A DNA stretch of 16,518 bases. Source: a virus. Its lineage: Duplodnaviria; Heunggongvirae; Uroviricota; Caudoviricetes. The notes below the pieces were generated by a model. The model was not told the origin of the DNA and made no database searches. It saw only the letters and a list, made by a program, of their open reading frames with translations. Below are positions 5,385 through 14,042 of the stretch, piece by piece. A program made the translations under genes and the position numbers. The stretch lies in IMG/VR virus record IMGVR_UViG_2563366924_000007; one strand, 5' to 3'. Each line of letters begins with the position of its first letter. The stretch's first letter is position 1.

Positions 5385-6551
5385 TCAGGAACCGGAACCG
5401 GAAAGCTCAAGCACCTTGATGGCGTTGGAGTCCACCACACCACCGCCTAGGTATTTATCGGTGTGCACCTTGTAGAAACCAGGTTCGGTGATGTTGTCGG
5501 GGCGGGTACGCACGCCAGTGGTGTGATCCACGATGAAGTAACCGCGCTTAAAGTCGCCGACTGCCAGGAACGCTTCACCCGCAGCCGCATCAGGCATGGT
5601 TTCCAGATATTGAACCGGACGGCCAAGGAGGGTATCGGGAGAGTCAGCGACGAGACGATCACGCCAGATGTAATCCCCGTTGCCGTTTTTCAGCTTTTGC
5701 AGCGTAGCGGCAGTGTTGGAGTTCATCACCCATACGGCATTTTTACGGTATTTGGCTTTCAGCTTATACAGCAGGTCGATCAATCCATCAGAGGAAACGG
5801 CAGCAGCTTCCATTTTCTCCAGCGTTCCGAACGGACGGGTTTTATCGCTGGTGGCCGCACGCGGATAGGACAGGAACCCTTTGGATTTTTTATCACCGTC
5901 GCCGTTCACAAAGTCGGTTTCTTCGGTAGCAGTGAAGGTGTCGGTGATTTCGGAAGACAGCCAACCCAGAATATCAACTTCGGAGAAGTCGAGAATTTCC
6001 TGAGTGGTTTTCGGGTAGGCGTAGATCGGGTTGAGTTTGATATCAACGCGCTCCATCTTAGGTGTGCTGGTTTCGGTACGCGCTTCGCCTTCGGTGCCGC
6101 GCTTAACGGTAGTGCCACCCACTGATACCAGCTTCTGGTATTCGTTGGTTTTGGTGGTCTTCACCGTAGCGATGGAGCGCATAACGCTGTCATCCTGCAA
6201 CTGGCGCATGATCTCTTTGTCCAGCTCAGGGATAACGGTATAGCCGCCGTCAGCCTGCACCAACGTGGAGAGAGAGCGGGTATCGCCGGTCATGATGTAG
6301 TGGCGCAGCTCATCGTTGCTTACACCTTTACCTTCAACAGAAGTACCAGGCAGATTGCGCTGATCGTCGGCGACGGCCTCAAGGCGGGTAATTTCAACTT
6401 CAAGCGCATCAGCCTGGGCGCGGAGTTCATCGAACTGCTTGCCCTCTTCATCGTTCAGGCTTCGCTTTTCGCTGTCAGCTTTTTCCAGCATGGAACGCAT
6501 CTGGGTTTTGAGTGCGGCTTTCTGCTGGCGTAATTCAAGTAATTTCTTCAT
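5385..6551 (-). CDS. Major capsid protein (HK97-fold) with N-terminal coiled-coil delta domain
   Basis: From ATG at 6551 (MKKLLELRQQKAALKTQMRSMLEKADSEKR...) a charged coiled-coil N-terminus then an HK97-like capsid body; the track ORF to 6668 adds an implausible N-terminal extension. Confidence 0.88.
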   Translation of the reverse strand: MKKLLELRQQKAALKTQMRSMLEKADSEKRSLNDEEGKQFDELRAQADALEVEITRLEAVADDQRNLPGTSVEGKGVSNDELRHYIMTGDTRSLSTLVQADGGYTVIPELDKEIMRQLQDDSVMRSIATVKTTKTNEYQKLVSVGGTTVKRGTEGEARTETSTPKMERVDIKLNPIYAYPKTTQEILDFSEVDILGWLSSEITDTFTATEETDFVNGDGDKKSKGFLSYPRAATSDKTRPFGTLEKMEAAAVSSDGLIDLLYKLKAKYRKNAVWVMNSNTAATLQKLKNGNGDYIWRDRLVADSPDTLLGRPVQYLETMPDAAAGEAFLAVGDFKRGYFIVDHTTGVRTRPDNITEPGFYKVHTDKYLGGGVVDSNAIKVLELSGSGS

Positions 6552-6575: not shown

Positions 6576-6672
6576 GTTGAGACGTGAAACCAGCGCTTGG
6601 AGGGATGTCCACCTGGAAAGGAAACCGTCGCAGAACGGGAAAGAACCAGGTGGACAGTGGCGGCTCACGTCT
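6576..6672. promoter_or_regulatory. Nested inverted repeats in the capsid-operon leader/promoter region
   Basis: Perfect 11-bp inverted repeat TGTCCACCTGG (6606-6616) / CCAGGTGGACA (6646-6656) inside an outer 8-bp inverted repeat AGACGTGA (6580-6587) / TCACGTCT (6665-6672). Confidence 0.35.
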
Positions 6673-6813
6673 GAGTGCCACTCTTCAAGATATACATAAT
6701 AATCAATGAGTAAACACCTCTATGTTGTCGCAAATAGCAGCGAAAACAGGAGAACAAATAATTTACAAAGTTTGATAATATGAACGGGAAAAACACCACT
6801 TCTGGGGGATTTT

Positions 6814-7326
6814 ATGGACTTCGATTTTGATGATATGGCATACCCGGATATTTTTTTAATTTCCGGCGAGGAGTTTAAAGGAAGCCGGAACACAGGAAAA
6901 AATCAGGTAGATATCCCGTTTACTGACGAACCGCAAATTGAATTGGGTGATATTCTGATTCAGAAGATTGGAAGCCGCGAGTTAAGCCTTAAAGTTGTCG
7001 ATCTTTCAATATCAAAGAATGGAACGCTGAACGTAGGTACAACGCATCCTCACTTACTTACGTTATCCGTAGAGAATCTTTCTTCCGACGCACACAGGAC
7101 AGCAAAGAGCATGAATACTTTTAATATTGGCTCCGTCAGTGGTGAGCAAGTTCAAATAGGTGAAAGTAATCATATGCTGGTGAATATCAGTATTACTGAA
7201 CTTGTCGAGAAAGTAGCCAAATCTGGCGATCCACAGGCTAAATCAATGTTGAAACAGTTACTGGAAAATAGCACCGTTGCCAGTATCGTTGGCGCTGGCG
7301 CTTCCGCGCTGTTAGGTCTGCTTTAA
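6814..7326 (+). CDS. Hypothetical protein, AT-rich, with C-terminal hydrophobic Gly/Ala-rich tail (170 aa)
   Basis: Clean ORF with a GGGGGA Shine-Dalgarno-like sequence before the ATG; opposite orientation to neighbours; C-terminus VASIVGAGASALLGLL looks like a membrane anchor. No recognised domain. Confidence 0.6.
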   Translation: MDFDFDDMAYPDIFLISGEEFKGSRNTGKNQVDIPFTDEPQIELGDILIQKIGSRELSLKVVDLSISKNGTLNVGTTHPHLLTLSVENLSSDAHRTAKSMNTFNIGSVSGEQVQIGESNHMLVNISITELVEKVAKSGDPQAKSMLKQLLENSTVASIVGAGASALLGLL

Positions 7327-7330
7327 AATA

Positions 7331-7351
7331 TGGCCTGGGAACACCAGGCCA
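7331..7351. terminator. Hairpin between the convergent genes
   Basis: TGGCCTGG-gaaca-CCAGGCCA, perfect 8-bp stem; a U-rich tail follows on the minus-strand transcript. Confidence 0.5.
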
Positions 7352-7372: not shown

Positions 7373-7708
7373 TTATTCTTTATCCAGCCCCCACTGATAG
7401 AAAGCCCAGCTTGCCGTTGATTGTGCGCTATGGATAGCGTTCTCAAGGCCAGAGGTTGGGTACGACAAATCAGCCGCCATCCTCTGTAGAAGATCGAGGT
7501 AAGCGCTGGCGTCTTTCGACAACTCTTGCCCCCCTTCTTCCAGCCCAGACTGGTACGATTCCAGATCAAGTTTTTCAGAAGTGACAAAAGCGCTCAGAGC
7601 CAGAAAATCCGTCACCGTAATCTCATCTTTATTTGAAAGCTCATCAACGGCGCTGTAGAGAAACTTAACATCGCTCATATGCCCGTTATCTTTGCCAATC
7701 AGTTTCAT
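7373..7708 (-). CDS. Hypothetical small acidic protein (111 aa)
   Basis: ATG at 7708 preceded by AAGAGG at good spacing; acidic composition; sits just downstream of the iteron origin. No recognised domain. Confidence 0.6.
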   Translation of the reverse strand: MKLIGKDNGHMSDVKFLYSAVDELSNKDEITVTDFLALSAFVTSEKLDLESYQSGLEEGGQELSKDASAYLDLLQRMAADLSYPTSGLENAIHSAQSTASWAFYQWGLDKE

Positions 7709-7744: not shown

Positions 7745-8030
7745 CTATGTTGGTTCAGTTAGTTCAGTTGGTTCAATTTGTAAAGATCATTGTTTTATAA
7801 GGATTATTTTCCGATGAGTGAACCAACAAAGCCCCGATTTGAACCAACATTGGGTATTTTCATGTTGGTTCAGCCCATGAGGTTCTAAAATGTTGGTTCA
7901 AACTGCCCGTTTGTTGGTTCAAAACTGATATTTGTTGGTTCAGTGTTGGTTCGTTTTTTTGACATTAAACCCATATAAAACAGCCATATGAACATAACCA
8001 ATAAACACTGAACCAACTGAACCAACATTA
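7745..8030. repeat. Iteron array, putative origin of replication
   Basis: At least 11 copies of TGTTGGTTCA or its reverse complement in four clusters (about 7749-7776, 7819-7849, 7863-7953, 8009-8026) with AT-rich spacers, directly 3' of the replication gene. Confidence 0.7.
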
Positions 8031-8050
8031 ACAACCCTCACATGTGTAAT

Positions 8051-10186
8051 TTATTCTTCTCCATCTTCCGCAACCTGGTGAAGCACATAAACGTTAATTT
8101 GACGCCCATCAATACGCGGGGATTTCTGCTGGTATCCACGCCCGCTGGACGGCTCAGAAAGCAAGCCAGCAGCGGCAAGCACGCGGGCAAACTGCCTGGC
8201 GTTAAAGCCCTGAGCTATCTCCTTCTCAAACGTTGCGGGGAACGTATAGAACACCAGCGGCGCATCATCATGGCTGCTTTTGCGCTTTCGATACCCGGCC
8301 AAATCGCGAATTGGCATACTGGACGGATCATAGGGCAACGGTGCAAAGCGGCTTAAACCGTAGGCATTCAGGAACGCCTCGCACTGCTCGATGATCTGCT
8401 GGTGCTCTTTGTTACCCGTGCCGAACTCTTTCACCCAGGCGTTAAAGCTATGCTGGATAGCGTCACGGCTGGCCTGTTCACTCCATCCGGTGATTGATGC
8501 ACCAGTTACCAGCGCGGCTTCGAGGATTGCAAAACGTTCAGCCACGCGGTGTACCTGCTCACCGTAGTCAGCCGGGATGAGGCCGCGCCAGCGCGTTTGC
8601 GCGTCACGCACCGCCTGTTTAGCCTCCTGCTGGTTAGCCGCCAGCCATTTAACCCACTCACGCCCCGCCGCCCCGTGGTTATCAATCCAGGCTTCTTTCA
8701 GTGCGTCAGCATGAGCCTTGCCGTTTGGCAGACCGTTAAAAGCCGTCGATTTCTCCATAGGGATGTTGAGCAAGCGCACCAGTTGGCCCGCTTTCACTTT
8801 CAGCCCACCAGCAGCCAGGAAGGTTTCAATATCCATTTCCCCGGTGCTGATCGCCACAGTGCGCCAGCGTTTAAGCTCCCGATTGCCGCCCTCTTTGGCT
8901 CCCTGCAACTTTCCGGCACCGTTAAACAGGGTGTAGGCAGACGTAGCAACATCTTTGGCACTGCTGCCCTGTCCTACCTCATCAAGCGGTAACAGGCTGT
9001 CGTTATGCGCCTCCGCTTCGTTTGCTATGCCAAGCGCAGTACCGTACCAGGTAAGCCGCAACGCATCAGGCTCACCCCACAGGCTGCTCGCAATATTGGC
9101 GGTAGTGGTCTTACCGGCGCTCGACTGCTCGAACAAATGGACGCCGAAACCATCAGCCCCCACCAGGCCAATAAGCGGCGCGGATAATGCCGCTGCCACG
9201 CCCAGCATCATGGACGGATTGCCCCCGGCCAGACGGGCGACGGAATCCCGCCAGGTGGCAGCAGTACCAGCAATGGCATACCCGGAAGATGCAGCGCTGC
9301 GACCGTTAAAGAGAATGGGCGTCTCTGGATCACCAATCACTTCACCATCAGGCATGATATATGCGCCGTGATGCCAGCCAGTGGTATGGGTGATAATCCA
9401 TTCCCGATCAGTGCCGCTTTGCTGCAACCAGTCGGCCAGAATCGCCCGGAATGTGCTTTTAGTGGTCACATTCACCCCACCAGCTTTAAGTGAGCGCCAG
9501 CCGTCGCGCTCACCGATATCAGCACAGGGGATCGCCCTGGTAATATCTTCATGGCCACGCGGCGAACGCCAGCGCAAAACAAGATAGCGCTCTGCCCCGT
9601 CACTACCGGAGCCGACCACCTCAAGAGGCGAGCACAGCCACGTTTCGTTATTGATGATCTCGCCACTATCCTTGTCCACCTTTGGCGTGATCCAGTACAG
9701 GCCATCGCTCCGGCTCTCCACGCGGGGTTTGAGTTCATCGCCCGGTTCAGGCTTTGGCTCCCGTTTTTTTACAGGCAGGTTCACCACAATGCTTTCCCCG
9801 CGTTCGGCCTCTTCTTTGAGACGTGGAAGCCTGCCCGTCCAGTCCTCCTTCGGCTGAGGCTCAAACATGCCATTAAACAGCCTGGCCTCTTTCACATCCG
9901 CCAGCGCCAGTTTGGTTGCGATAGTGCTTATCTGCATTTCGGAAAGTTCGCCAGCGCGGATCACACGAACACTGCGACGGCCGTTATCAACAATGTTTAA
10001 CCGTTCCAGTTCCGCAAGTTGCCTTTTACCCAGATAAACAGGCGGTACATCATCCCATGCCCTTTTACCTTCGCTCTCGATCCAGTGCTGCACATGCGAA
10101 TAGGCATCTTCACCCGCAAAGATAATCGCCTCGGTAAATTTATCTTTCGGCAGGAATTTAATGTTCGGGGCATTCTTCATCTTCAT
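8051..10186 (-). CDS. Replication initiator/helicase-like P-loop NTPase (satellite Rep type)
   Basis: 711 aa; Walker A-like SSAGKTTT and Walker B-like LLPLDEVG; adjacent to iterons; start translationally coupled to the upstream small ORF. Confidence 0.7.
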   Translation of the reverse strand: MKMKNAPNIKFLPKDKFTEAIIFAGEDAYSHVQHWIESEGKRAWDDVPPVYLGKRQLAELERLNIVDNGRRSVRVIRAGELSEMQISTIATKLALADVKEARLFNGMFEPQPKEDWTGRLPRLKEEAERGESIVVNLPVKKREPKPEPGDELKPRVESRSDGLYWITPKVDKDSGEIINNETWLCSPLEVVGSGSDGAERYLVLRWRSPRGHEDITRAIPCADIGERDGWRSLKAGGVNVTTKSTFRAILADWLQQSGTDREWIITHTTGWHHGAYIMPDGEVIGDPETPILFNGRSAASSGYAIAGTAATWRDSVARLAGGNPSMMLGVAAALSAPLIGLVGADGFGVHLFEQSSAGKTTTANIASSLWGEPDALRLTWYGTALGIANEAEAHNDSLLPLDEVGQGSSAKDVATSAYTLFNGAGKLQGAKEGGNRELKRWRTVAISTGEMDIETFLAAGGLKVKAGQLVRLLNIPMEKSTAFNGLPNGKAHADALKEAWIDNHGAAGREWVKWLAANQQEAKQAVRDAQTRWRGLIPADYGEQVHRVAERFAILEAALVTGASITGWSEQASRDAIQHSFNAWVKEFGTGNKEHQQIIEQCEAFLNAYGLSRFAPLPYDPSSMPIRDLAGYRKRKSSHDDAPLVFYTFPATFEKEIAQGFNARQFARVLAAAGLLSEPSSGRGYQQKSPRIDGRQINVYVLHQVAEDGEE

Positions 10187-13235: not shown

Positions 13236-14042
13236 TCATTTCCTACGCCTATTTTTTTGCTCAATCAACCTCTCCCGGATTTCTCTCTCAAACTTTTCCA
13301 ACGAAAAATTTGCAAGATTTTTTTCGAAAAAAGGCCGAATAGTTTCACAGAGTTTCTTTTCTCCGACTGATAGATCAGGGAAAATCGAACCGGCAATTAC
13401 ACTACTGCTTATCCTGTTTCCTGTAATTTTTTGCCAGCAGAACAGGTCAGCATAGGGGAAGATTCCATAACTTATTATCTTCCTTCTGGCTACTTCCCAA
13501 GAATTTATTGATAGTTCATTATTTGGGTCTGGAATATTTAAGGAATTTCGCCATGATGAAAGCAAAGATGATAAGTCTTCAATTAAAAATTCATCAGGAT
13601 AACGTAAATCCAATTTAACAAAGAAATCATCCCCGAAGTTATCAATCAGATTAATACAGTCCAGCAACCCCAAAGTATCAGCATCATCATATTCATCAAC
13701 TACTTTTTTAGAGTGCATTATTTTGAATATATCGTGACGCTGTAAAGGCTCAATCAGCATTGACGAACCAAGCCGTTTACCTGCATTTGAGTTATCTTCC
13801 TGCATATCGGATTGCACGCAATCAACACCAGCAAAAGCATCCTCACTATATTTTCTGTCAGCTACTGGATTAGACATTATTATTTTTAAATCATCTTCAT
13901 CTATCCATTTCTCATAGTCTGCGACCATATAATGACGCATTAATAACTGATTAAAAAACTCTCTATCATCTAATGATTCAAAAGTTTTATATTTCCCTAT
14001 ATCGAAATACTCCGGCAAATCGCTTTTCTTGTTAATTAACAT
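13236..14042 (-). CDS. Hypothetical protein (268 aa), markedly AT-rich, adjacent to the integrase; candidate cargo gene
   Basis: Clean ORF with a GAGGGTG Shine-Dalgarno-like sequence; by eye far more AT-rich than the flanking integrase and alpA; acidic, no recognised catalytic motif. Confidence 0.6.
   Translation of the reverse strand: MLINKKSDLPEYFDIGKYKTFESLDDREFFNQLLMRHYMVADYEKWIDEDDLKIIMSNPVADRKYSEDAFAGVDCVQSDMQEDNSNAGKRLGSSMLIEPLQRHDIFKIMHSKKVVDEYDDADTLGLLDCINLIDNFGDDFFVKLDLRYPDEFLIEDLSSLLSSWRNSLNIPDPNNELSINSWEVARRKIISYGIFPYADLFCWQKITGNRISSSVIAGSIFPDLSVGEKKLCETIRPFFEKNLANFSLEKFEREIRERLIEQKNRRRK

What the first reader, a model, noticed from the sequence alone, without database searches (positions are those of the whole stretch)
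6814..7326. Opposite-strand AT-rich gene with a C-terminal membrane-anchor-like tail, inserted before the capsid operon
Seen: the only plus-strand gene in the structural half, AT-rich, ending in VASIVGAGASALLGLL. Inference: a moron-type insertion; candidate membrane-acting effector such as superinfection exclusion or abortive infection.
Basis: partly seen in the sequence, partly recalled or inferred. Interest (0 to 1): 0.65.

Follow-up and report, generated by a model that had tools for sequence, protein, structure and literature searches.

The report
Satellite cargo gene with RHIM-like motif
The opposite-strand gene is a real, swappable cargo gene of a capsid-forming phage satellite, and its protein joins a variable front domain to a short motif resembling the amyloid "RHIM" switch of animal cell-death pathways and a conserved greasy tail, which makes it a good untested candidate for a new kind of anti-phage suicide switch.

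Summary
ORF 6814-7326 (+) encodes 170 aa ending in VASIVGAGASALLGLL. It has 42% GC against 54-56% in its neighbours and evolves under purifying selection (dN/dS 0.08-0.15).

The window is a capsid-forming PICI (cf-PICI). The gene sits in a hypervariable, opposite-strand cargo slot between the replication origin and the capsid operon. Only 8 of 68 related elements carry it. Others carry a DRT reverse transcriptase, PDC-M18, YopJ, Hcp plus a chitinase, or DUF3775 in the same slot. Relatives also occur in a P2-like prophage accessory region, a lambdoid moron site and a Vibrio defence island.

It matches nothing in Pfam, NCBIfam or PADLOC, and it is not a Tai protein. The protein has three parts:
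- a beta-barrel N-domain, replaced by at least 21 unrelated N-regions in relatives;
- a conserved, disordered motif (NIGSVSGxQVQIGxxNxQ) whose profile hits only RHIM amyloid chains in the PDB (best E 3e-4);
- a near-invariant helical module ending in a weakly hydrophobic 17-residue Gly-zipper tail.

My best reading is an abortive-infection effector switched on by amyloid-like assembly, analogous to E. coli Bab/Agp and fungal HET-S. Its status as cargo is solid. The mechanism is inferred and has not been tested.

The parts
6814..7326 (+). 170-aa cargo gene (phrog_5789 family), including the stop codon
6804..6809 (+). Shine-Dalgarno-like GGGGGA, 4 nt upstream of the ATG
   Evidence: read from the sequence
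6841..7092 (+). N-terminal small beta-barrel domain (about residues 10-93). This is the variable 'specificity' part of the family.
7117..7194 (+). Conserved, low-confidence linker carrying the RHIM/BASS-like motif TFNIGSVSGEQVQIGESNHMLVNISI (residues 102-127). The VQIGxxN core is at 7150-7170.
   Evidence: invariant Q114, G116, N119; pLDDT 55-57; profile hits only RHIM chains in the PDB; DNA pattern match at 7123-7170
7192..7323 (+). Conserved C-terminal helical module (residues 127-170): amphipathic helices ELVEKVAKSGDPQAKSMLKQLLEN followed by the tail
   Evidence: no PDB or Pfam match
7273..7323 (+). 17-residue Gly/Ala/Ser-rich hydrophobic tail TVASIVGAGASALLGLL (small-xxx-small zipper A156-G160-S164-G168)
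   Evidence: near-invariant across genera
6654..6770 (.). Sequence upstream of the capsid operon, conserved at about 79% in cf-PICIs that carry different cargo. It marks the left border of the cargo slot and is a probable regulatory region of the packaging operon.
7331..7351 (-). Strong hairpin (9 bp stem in the fold) between the convergent genes, followed on the minus strand by UAUUUUAA. It is a likely terminator of the replication-module transcript.
   Evidence: sequence. The consensus scan did not list it.
7373..7708 (-). 111-aa gene (phrog_7232), convergent neighbour. It is not a conserved partner: other carriers of the family have unrelated 82-161 aa genes here.
7745..8040 (.). AT-rich (34.5% GC) iteron field with at least 12 copies of TGTTGGTTCA in both orientations. 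This is the probable island replication origin and marks the right side of the slot.
8051..10186 (-). DUF927 primase/replication gene of the cf-PICI
5385..6551 (-). HK97-type major capsid gene, first gene of the packaging operon, divergent from the cargo gene
   Evidence: start read

Best explanation
The gene is accessory cargo of a capsid-forming phage-inducible chromosomal island (cf-PICI). It is carried in a swappable, opposite-strand slot between the island's origin and its capsid operon, so it is probably expressed from the integrated island rather than with the packaging genes.

The protein has three parts:
1. a cytoplasmic beta-barrel domain that differs between relatives, proposed here as the sensor or specificity part;
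2. a disordered, strongly conserved motif of about 25 residues with the RHIM core (V-Q-I-G-x-x-N), flanked by Gly-interrupted beta-prone stretches;
3. a near-invariant helical module ending in a weakly hydrophobic glycine-zipper tail.

Proposed mechanism (inferred, not shown): a phage-derived trigger engages or oligomerises the N-domain. The RHIM-like motifs then stack into an amyloid-like assembly. That assembly concentrates or unsheathes the C-terminal helices, which insert into the inner membrane and collapse it. This would be an abortive-infection outcome that protects the clonal population and the resident satellite. The scheme follows the logic of E. coli Bab/Agp (BASS11), fungal HET-S/HELLP and RIPK3-MLKL, but packed into one small polypeptide with the membrane part C-terminal to the motif.
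For: Cargo status:
- The element carries int, alpA, DUF927 pri, capsid, protease, portal, head completion, HNH, terS and terL, and no tail or lysis genes.
- The slot content differs among 68 related loci, of which only 8 hold this family. Other occupants are DRT RT_UG17 (E=4.7e-161), PDC-M18A/B, YopJ, Hcp plus GH19, and DUF3775.
- The literature identifies 'after pri' as a PICI defence hotspot (PMC11364771).
- Relatives lie in a P2-like prophage accessory region beside a HEPN gene, in a Vibrio island with AIPR, HipA and DUF2971, between Rz and HNH/terS of a lambdoid phage, and in an IS-rich region.

Modularity:
- All invariant residues lie in the motif or the C-module.
- The C-module is fused to at least 21 unrelated N-regions.

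Motif:
- 203 of 261 sequences scanned (260 retrieved proteins plus the query) carry [hydrophobic]-Q-[IVLMF]-G-x-x-N.
- A family-wide motif profile matched only RHIM amyloid chains among 177,635 PDB sequences: RIPK1 E=3.1e-4, RIPK3 E=3.7e-3, a viral RHIM E=0.039.
- A second profile, cut from the unbiased alignment A1, again returned only RIPK3 RHIM chains.
- The full-length and C-module profiles gave no meaningful PDB hits.
- AF2 leaves the motif unstructured, at pLDDT 55-57.
- The Bab BASS11 residues named in the preprint (I87-G88-S89-V90, D99, N100, about 23 aa, Gly breakers) fit the family consensus NIGSV...G(N/D)xN.
- In two cf-PICIs (L020, L029) an adjacent paralogue carries the same motif with a degenerate C-module. 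A shared motif in adjacent genes is the hallmark of amyloid signalling.

Tail: Gly/Ala/Ser-rich with a small-xxx-small zipper, and nearly identical from Klebsiella to Vibrio.
Against: - There is no experimental data of any kind for this family.
- No PADLOC, Pfam or NCBIfam match, and Pfam's RHIM model does not detect the motif.
- The unbiased motif profile A6 hits RHIM only at non-significant E-values of 0.5-1.5. The significant result came from segments anchored on the family's own Q-G-N core.
- The window has no second protein with the motif.
- The tail is short and only marginally hydrophobic.
- No convincing promoter was found.
- Neither the N-domain ligand nor whether the protein kills cells is known.
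Confidence: 0.42

Rival explanations
1. A constitutive tail-anchored inner-membrane protein that acts as a superinfection-exclusion factor. The C-terminal tail simply anchors the N-domain at the inner face of the membrane, where it blocks genome entry or an early step of incoming phages. The conserved linker is only a spacer.
For: C-terminal hydrophobic segment with 0-9 residues after it in relatives. Moron-type position and opposite-strand orientation. Known Sie proteins are small membrane proteins of prophages (general knowledge; cited in PMC11364771).
Against: A passive anchor and spacer would not be the most conserved parts of the protein, yet all invariant residues lie there. The tail is marginal as a stable transmembrane helix. 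The bulk of the protein is predicted to be cytoplasmic. The RHIM-like profile result is left unexplained.
Confidence: 0.15
2. An anti-defence decoy. Like the viral RHIM proteins M45 and ICP6, which poison host RHIM signalling, the mobile element encodes a BASS/RHIM-like motif. This motif co-assembles with host amyloid-signalling Abi systems (Bab/Agp-like) and blocks the cell death that would abort helper-phage and satellite propagation.
For: The motif profile also hits a viral RHIM decoy chain (12kl_B). The carriers are phages and satellites that need the host cell alive until lysis. An E. coli amyloid Abi system exists.
Against: It is also found in a chromosomal Vibrio defence island and an IS-rich region, not only in phage-like elements. 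The opposite-strand position suggests expression in the lysogenic or integrated state rather than with the lytic genes. A decoy would not need the near-invariant hydrophobic C-module or a variable N-domain.
Confidence: 0.12
3. A satellite-helper interference factor acting on head-tail joining. The N-domain mimics a phage head-completion (stopper) protein and sequesters helper heads or neck intermediates at the membrane, leaving tails free for cf-PICI capsids.
Confidence: 0.08
4. A lysogenic-conversion or housekeeping-type small membrane-associated protein unrelated to phage conflict (for example a stress or ribosome-associated tail-anchored protein in the style of ElaB/YqjD), or a conserved element gene with a morphogenetic role.
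For: Tail-anchored small proteins with Gly-rich C-terminal helices exist in E. coli (ElaB/YqjD; recalled from general knowledge, not tested). The same slot also carries virulence-type cargo such as YopJ and Hcp.
Against: No Pfam DUF883 or any other match. The gene is absent from about 88% of related elements, so it is not a core or morphogenetic gene. Its distribution is confined to mobile-element accessory slots and defence islands.
Confidence: 0.1

Closest known systems
Bab/Agp amyloid-signalling abortive-infection system of E. coli ECOR25 (BASS11 motif; Ibarlosa et al., bioRxiv 10.1101/2024.11.07.622273)
   Same: A short Gly-interrupted, N/Q-rich amyloid-type motif sits next to a small helical module with a terminal hydrophobic helix. 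It is carried in prophage or defence hotspots of Enterobacteria. The BASS11 residues named in the paper (IGSV, D-N, about 23 aa) fit the family consensus. Two related cf-PICIs have adjacent genes sharing the motif.
   Different: Here a single polypeptide carries the N-domain, the motif and the membrane module. The hydrophobic helix is at the C-terminus, after the motif, whereas in Bab the Bell domain comes first. There is no TPR-GreAB_C-PIN or NLR partner in the window. No alignment with Bab was possible. Function is untested.
RHIM amyloid motif of RIPK1/RIPK3/ZBP1/TRIF and viral RHIM decoys; fungal PP motif; bacterial BASS3 (Dyrka et al. 2020, 10.1101/2020.01.06.895854)
   Same: Core (I/V)-Q-(I/V/L)-G followed by a conserved Asn. 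The family motif profile retrieves only RHIM chains from the PDB.
   Different: Pfam's RHIM model does not match. The spacing upstream of the core differs by two residues from RIPK3. The hosts are unicellular gamma-proteobacteria and their mobile elements, whereas BASS motifs were reported as specific to multicellular bacteria with NLR partners. Common ancestry cannot be distinguished from convergence.
Fungal HET-S / HELLP (HeLo or HeLo-like pore-forming domain controlled by an amyloid motif)
   Same: Proposed logic only: amyloid folding of a short motif releases a terminal hydrophobic helix that targets the membrane.
   Different: No sequence or fold similarity was detected. The domain order is reversed, and the membrane module is far smaller (about 45 aa).
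Tai (tail assembly inhibition) systems of PICIs, prophages and P4-like satellites (He et al. 2024, PMC11364771)
   Same: Same genomic niches (after pri in PICIs, before terS in lambdoid phages) and similar size (170-200 aa). Both are single genes missed by PADLOC and DefenseFinder.
   Different: Not homologous. hhalign against TaiEcA (phi80 orf63) and the FSL SP-016 Tai gives probabilities of 1% or less. Tai proteins are all-helical and carry neither the motif nor the tail.
SAR domains and pinholin TMD1, and tail-anchored proteins such as ElaB/YqjD
   Same: Gly/Ala/Ser-rich, weakly hydrophobic terminal helix that could sit in or out of the membrane (composition only).
   Different: No sequence match, and different position and context. 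The resemblance is recalled from general knowledge and was not tested.

Membership tests
Capsid-forming PICI (the element that carries the gene) | Integrase, AlpA, pri/rep plus its own capsid, protease, portal, head-tail connector, HNH, TerS and TerL; no tail or lysis genes; about 15 kb | tested here: met
   Inserted between fis and yhdJ in the E. coli copy.
Tai (tail assembly inhibition) | Sequence homology to TaiEcA, TaiPectA and relatives | tested here: not met
   hhalign probability 0.1% against phi80 orf63 and 1% against the FSL SP-016 Tai
Tai (tail assembly inhibition) | Location in the PICI hotspot after pri, or before terS in phages | tested here: met
   PMC11364771
RHIM / RHIM-like amyloid motifs | Core tetrad (I/V)-Q-(I/V/L)-G with flanking conserved Asn, in a non-globular stretch of about 20 aa | tested here: met
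   V113-Q-I-G116..N119. Q, G and N are invariant in A1. 203 of 261 scanned sequences carry the pattern. pLDDT 55-57.
RHIM / RHIM-like amyloid motifs | Statistically supported profile similarity to known RHIMs | tested here: inconclusive
   A3 profile: 10 of 10 PDB hits are RHIM chains, best E=3.1e-4. A6 profile: 4 of 4 hits are RIPK3 but at E 0.5-1.5. The Pfam RHIM model gives no hit.
RHIM / BASS amyloid signalling | The motif actually forms cross-beta fibrils or prion-like foci | not testable with these tools
   Needs peptide fibrillation, ThT, EM or GFP-foci assays
Bacterial amyloid signalling pairs (Bell/NLR, Bab/Agp) | The same motif in the products of two adjacent genes (sensor and effector) | tested here: not met
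   In the window only the 170-aa ORF carries the motif. Adjacent motif-bearing paralogues do exist in L020 and L029.
Bacterial amyloid signalling pairs (Bell/NLR, Bab/Agp) | Bell/Babybell helical effector domain; BASS11 motif identity by alignment | not tested
   The Bab sequence (OWC60847.1) was not retrievable. Only residues named in the text were compared.
Tail-anchored inner-membrane protein | A single C-terminal hydrophobic helix long and hydrophobic enough to span the bilayer | tested here: inconclusive
   17 residues, KD 1.87. The 19-residue window scores 1.45. Hessa sum is +1.4 for 17 aa and +4.3 for 19 aa.
Known anti-phage defence families (PADLOC-DB v2) | HMM match | tested here: not met
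   0 families at E<=0.1
Phage head completion protein (Phage_HCP, PF05521) | Sequence or profile similarity; specific fold match | tested here: not met

The most novel reading that the evidence does not exclude
A family of about 170-residue, self-contained 'sensor - RHIM-like amyloid switch - membrane tail' proteins spreads on phage satellites, prophages and defence islands of unicellular gamma-proteobacteria. It would act as a one-gene, prion-like abortive-infection device. This would extend RHIM/BASS-type amyloid signalling beyond NLR-linked pairs in multicellular bacteria and would give the smallest known amyloid-controlled cell-death module.
Probability: 0.3. Interest if true: 0.9.

Novelty: new variant of a known kind. 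Interest (0 to 1): 0.7.

Why it matters
Amyloid-controlled cell death (RHIM in animals, HET-S in fungi) has one experimentally studied bacterial counterpart so far: the two-gene Bab/Agp system, described in a 2024 preprint. Bacterial amyloid signalling motifs were previously reported as restricted to multicellular bacteria with NLR partners.

A one-gene version carried by capsid-forming satellites that move between genera would matter in three ways. It would show that such switches are mobile, modular and widespread in enterobacteria, vibrios and pseudomonads. It would offer a very small, tractable model for how amyloid nucleation is coupled to membrane attack. It would also add a new entry to the defence repertoire that current detectors miss.

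The survey independently documents that the ori-capsid junction of cf-PICIs is a cargo hotspot holding defence, virulence and competition genes.

Tried and rejected
- **Tai family.** The same niches and size made it the obvious candidate. I fetched phi80 orf63 and the FSL SP-016 Tai, and hhalign shows no similarity.
- **Known domains.** Pfam, NCBIfam and PADLOC give nothing, even at E<=10 on the split halves.
- **Conserved partner gene.** The 111-aa neighbour is lineage-specific, and other carriers have different small genes there.
- **Retrieving other architectures with the motif, and the Bab sequence.**
  - The motif-profile search of the 5.8-billion-protein set failed: the query was too short, then only 28 candidates were collected.
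  - tblastn of a consensus motif against phages and plasmids found only the gene's own family.
  - A degenerate DNA pattern scan of IMG/VR found only the gene's own family. An earlier pattern with a miscounted gap matched nothing.
- **Other attempts.** The afdb50 fold library was unavailable. The Cell 2022 PICI-immunity paper is not held. A reversed-sequence control for the RHIM hit was prepared but dropped, because RHIM-type motifs are pseudo-palindromic and the control would not be clean.

Full report
**1. The observation**

The window holds an ATG-initiated ORF at 6814-7326 on the + strand, 170 aa long. Its product ends ...ENSTVASIVGAGASALLGLL. A GGGGGA ribosome-binding site lies 4 nt upstream of the start (sequence). 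The gene has 42.3% GC, against 53.6% for the adjacent capsid gene and 56.2% for the primase gene.

It is a real gene. It has 117 full-length homologues and matches PHROG family phrog_5789 at E=4.9e-97. dN/dS is 0.08 and 0.15 against the E. coli and Pluralibacter copies. In the RefSeq annotation of a 97.7%-identical E. coli copy, it is the only + strand CDS between the primase and terL.

**2. What the window is**

All other genes run on the minus strand, in this order:
- integrase;
- a DUF6387 gene;
- AlpA;
- an antirepressor;
- small genes;
- a DUF927 primase;
- an HK97-type capsid, a prohead protease, a portal and a head-completion protein;
- HNH, TerS and TerL.

No tail or lysis genes are present. 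This is the architecture of a capsid-forming PICI, a satellite that builds its own capsids and steals helper-phage tails (10.1101/2025.02.11.637232; PMC13612085). In E. coli ET670 the element lies between fis and yhdJ.

Downstream of the primase gene there is a 34.5%-GC field with at least 12 copies of TGTTGGTTCA in both orientations, which is the probable origin. A 111-aa gene follows, and then a strong hairpin with a U-tract on the minus strand. The cargo gene lies between that hairpin and a roughly 117-bp stretch upstream of the capsid gene. This stretch is conserved even in elements that carry other cargo.

**3. The slot is a cargo hotspot**

I fetched 80 loci through the capsid protein from one genome per species. 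In 68 of them at least 2.5 kb of sequence upstream of the capsid gene was available for inspection. Only 8 carry this family, one of them as a broken copy. The same position, usually on the strand opposite to the capsid gene, holds other cargo in related elements:
- a DRT reverse transcriptase (RT_UG17, E=4.7e-161);
- the PADLOC candidate PDC-M18A/B;
- a YopJ acetyltransferase;
- Hcp plus a GH19 chitinase;
- DUF3775;
- many unknown proteins.

He et al. 2024 showed experimentally that the region after pri is a defence hotspot in PICIs (PMC11364771).

Outside cf-PICIs the family is found in four other settings:
- a Pseudomonas P2-like prophage accessory region next to a HEPN gene;
- a Vibrio island with AIPR, HipA and DUF2971;
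- between Rz and HNH/terS of a lambdoid phage;
- an IS-rich Halomonas region.

A 60%-identical copy occupies the same slot of a different E. coli cf-PICI. In addition, 22 cf-PICI-sized IMG/VR contigs carry the gene divergently from the capsid gene, while their replication modules differ. There is no conserved partner gene.

**4. The protein**

No Pfam, NCBIfam or PADLOC family matches. AlphaFold2 gives three regions:
- a small beta-barrel, residues about 10-93, pLDDT about 85;
- an unstructured stretch, residues about 94-126, pLDDT 55-57;
- helices from residue 127 to 170.

Every invariant residue of the family alignment lies in the unstructured stretch (Q114, G116, N119) or in the helical module (D139, A142, K143, L150, N152, T154, V155, G160, A161).

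An exhaustive HMM search found 313 representatives. Of the 260 retrieved proteins, 143 are built like the query and 65 share only the C-terminal part. Of those 65, the 34 with long N-regions fall into 21 unrelated N-region clusters. The family is therefore a constant C-terminal half joined to interchangeable N-domains.

**5. The tail**

TVASIVGAGASALLGLL is the only hydrophobic segment. It is 17 residues long with a Kyte-Doolittle mean of 1.87. The 19-residue window scores 1.45. The unweighted Hessa sum is +1.4 kcal/mol. Nine of the 17 residues are Gly, Ala or Ser, and they form a small-xxx-small zipper (A156-G160-S164-G168).

The tail is nearly identical from Klebsiella to Vibrio, which is unusual for a passive anchor. 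It is better described as a marginal, possibly switchable membrane helix than as a classic anchor.

**6. The motif**

The conserved stretch reads TFNIGSVSGEQVQIGESNHMLVNISI. Of the 261 sequences scanned (the 260 retrieved proteins plus the query), 203 contain [hydrophobic]-Q-[IVLMF]-G-x-x-N. [quoted passage not shown]

I tested the resemblance with profile searches against all 177,635 distinct PDB sequences:
- A profile of 78 diverse motif segments returned ten hits, all of them RHIM amyloid chains: RIPK1 E=3.1e-4, RIPK3 E=3.7e-3, and a viral RHIM protein E=0.039.
- A second profile, cut directly from the unbiased alignment A1, returned four hits, all RIPK3 RHIM, but at non-significant E-values of 0.5-1.5.
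- As controls, the full-length profile and the C-module profile gave no meaningful hits.
- Pfam's RHIM model does not detect the motif.

The RHIM-like core is thus a fact of the sequence. The statistical support for a wider relationship is moderate.

**7. Link to known biology**

Dyrka et al. described ten bacterial amyloid signalling motifs (BASS). They include the RHIM-like BASS3. The motifs were found in NLR/Bell gene pairs of multicellular bacteria (10.1101/2020.01.06.895854).

Ibarlosa et al. showed that E. coli Bab/Agp is an abortive-infection system. In it a sensor (Agp) converts the BASS11 motif of a small membrane-targeting protein (Bab) to an amyloid fold (10.1101/2024.11.07.622273). 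The text of that paper names Bab residues I87-G88-S89-V90, D99 and N100, a motif of about 23 residues, and glycine beta-breakers. These fit the consensus NIGSV...G(N/D)xN found here. I could not obtain the Bab sequence, so this comparison is an inference and not an alignment.

In two cf-PICIs (L020, L029) the gene is preceded by a paralogue with a different N-domain, the same motif and a degenerate C-module. A shared motif in adjacent genes is the hallmark of amyloid signalling. In the window itself the motif occurs only once.

**8. Mechanism proposed**

The steps below are inferred and none has been shown. A phage cue engages the N-domain. The RHIM-like motifs then assemble into an amyloid-like stack. 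The C-terminal helices are concentrated or released and insert into the inner membrane. The cell is disabled before the phage completes its cycle, which protects kin cells and the resident satellite.

What is shown is the cargo status, the modular build, the motif core and the conservation pattern. I give this mechanism about 0.4. I give about 0.7 to the broader statement that the gene is a conflict (anti-phage or anti-defence) cargo gene.

The rivals, detailed in their own section, are:
- a plain membrane-anchored exclusion protein;
- a RHIM-type decoy against host amyloid Abi systems;
- a head-tail interference factor;
- an unrelated membrane protein.

**9. Tai excluded**

Tai proteins share the niches and the size. 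However, phi80 TaiEcA and the FSL SP-016 Tai show no similarity to the family.

**10. Verdict**

The gene belongs to an uncharacterised family that standard detectors miss. Its most informative feature is a RHIM/BASS-like motif between a variable domain and a conserved membrane-type tail. This places it closest to amyloid-controlled cell-death effectors, as a new single-polypeptide variant. Experimental tests are simple and are listed under next steps.

Noticed in passing
window 7745-8040: AT-rich (34.5% GC) non-coding stretch just downstream of the DUF927 primase gene, with at least 12 copies of the iteron TGTTGGTTCA in both orientations. It is very likely the cf-PICI replication origin.
   Followed up: partly
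L009-L012 (E. coli contigs), around 1000-1730 and 16660-17860: A different cf-PICI that carries a 60%-identical copy of the gene is flanked by a TerL_nuclease fragment on one side and a TerL_ATPase fragment plus TerS and HNH on the other. The satellite appears to be integrated inside a prophage large-terminase gene.
   Followed up: no
window 13236-14042 (-): The DUF6387 gene next to the integrase has only 35% GC and a faint AbiEi-like PADLOC hit (E=0.029). It looks like a second accessory cargo slot at the int end of the island.
   Followed up: no
window 6654-6770: A stretch of about 117 bp upstream of the capsid gene is conserved (about 79%) in E. coli cf-PICIs whose cargo and replication modules are unrelated. 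It is probably the promoter or regulatory region of the packaging operon.
   Followed up: partly
window 7331-7351: A 9-bp GC-rich hairpin (-20.8 kcal/mol for the 61-nt context) lies between the convergent 111-aa and 170-aa genes, with a U-tract only on the minus strand. It would terminate the replication-module transcript before the capsid operon. The consensus terminator scan did not list it.
   Followed up: partly
plasmid records CP069874.1 (15,995 bp) and CP018459.1 (16,971 bp); phage record PQ569648.1 92.5-106.5 kb (L003): Two K. pneumoniae 'plasmids' of cf-PICI size carry the gene, and are probably excised circular satellites deposited as plasmids. The 106-kb 'Klebsiella phage P12620-1' record ends with a cf-PICI segment, which is probably a chimeric assembly of phage and co-packaged satellite DNA.
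   Followed up: no
L020 5015-5779 and L029 5001-5738 (minus strand of those loci): In two cf-PICIs, a 254-aa or 245-aa paralogue with a different N-domain, the same RHIM-like motif and a degenerate or absent hydrophobic tail sits between the 170-aa gene and the capsid gene. This may be a two-component (sensor and effector) version.
   Followed up: partly
L066 1032-1625 (minus strand): In the slot of a Xenorhabdus cf-PICI, a 197-aa protein shares the Vibrio-type N-domain and an N-rich stretch (NVTYNISGANSRVNNHSIDNSINI). It ends in a different hydrophobic tail, which hints at a wider superfamily with exchangeable tails.
   Followed up: no
L055, L019, L073, L028 (slot upstream of the capsid gene): The same cf-PICI slot carries a DRT UG17 reverse transcriptase and a YopJ-family acetyltransferase (with IS fragments). 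Hits to PDC-M18A/B and to Hcp plus a GH19 chitinase also appear; the batch scan did not assign those to members, but they are probably the 344+173-aa pair in L019 and the two genes in L028. The hotspot therefore holds virulence or competition cargo as well as defence genes.
   Followed up: partly
phi80 orf63 (L097 1366-1980) and FSL SP-016 Tai (L098 1279-1824): Both Tai proteins contain an R-x4-H stretch (MRNDLAH, IRNARSH) reminiscent of the HEPN Rx4-6H motif. This was seen by eye only.
   Followed up: no
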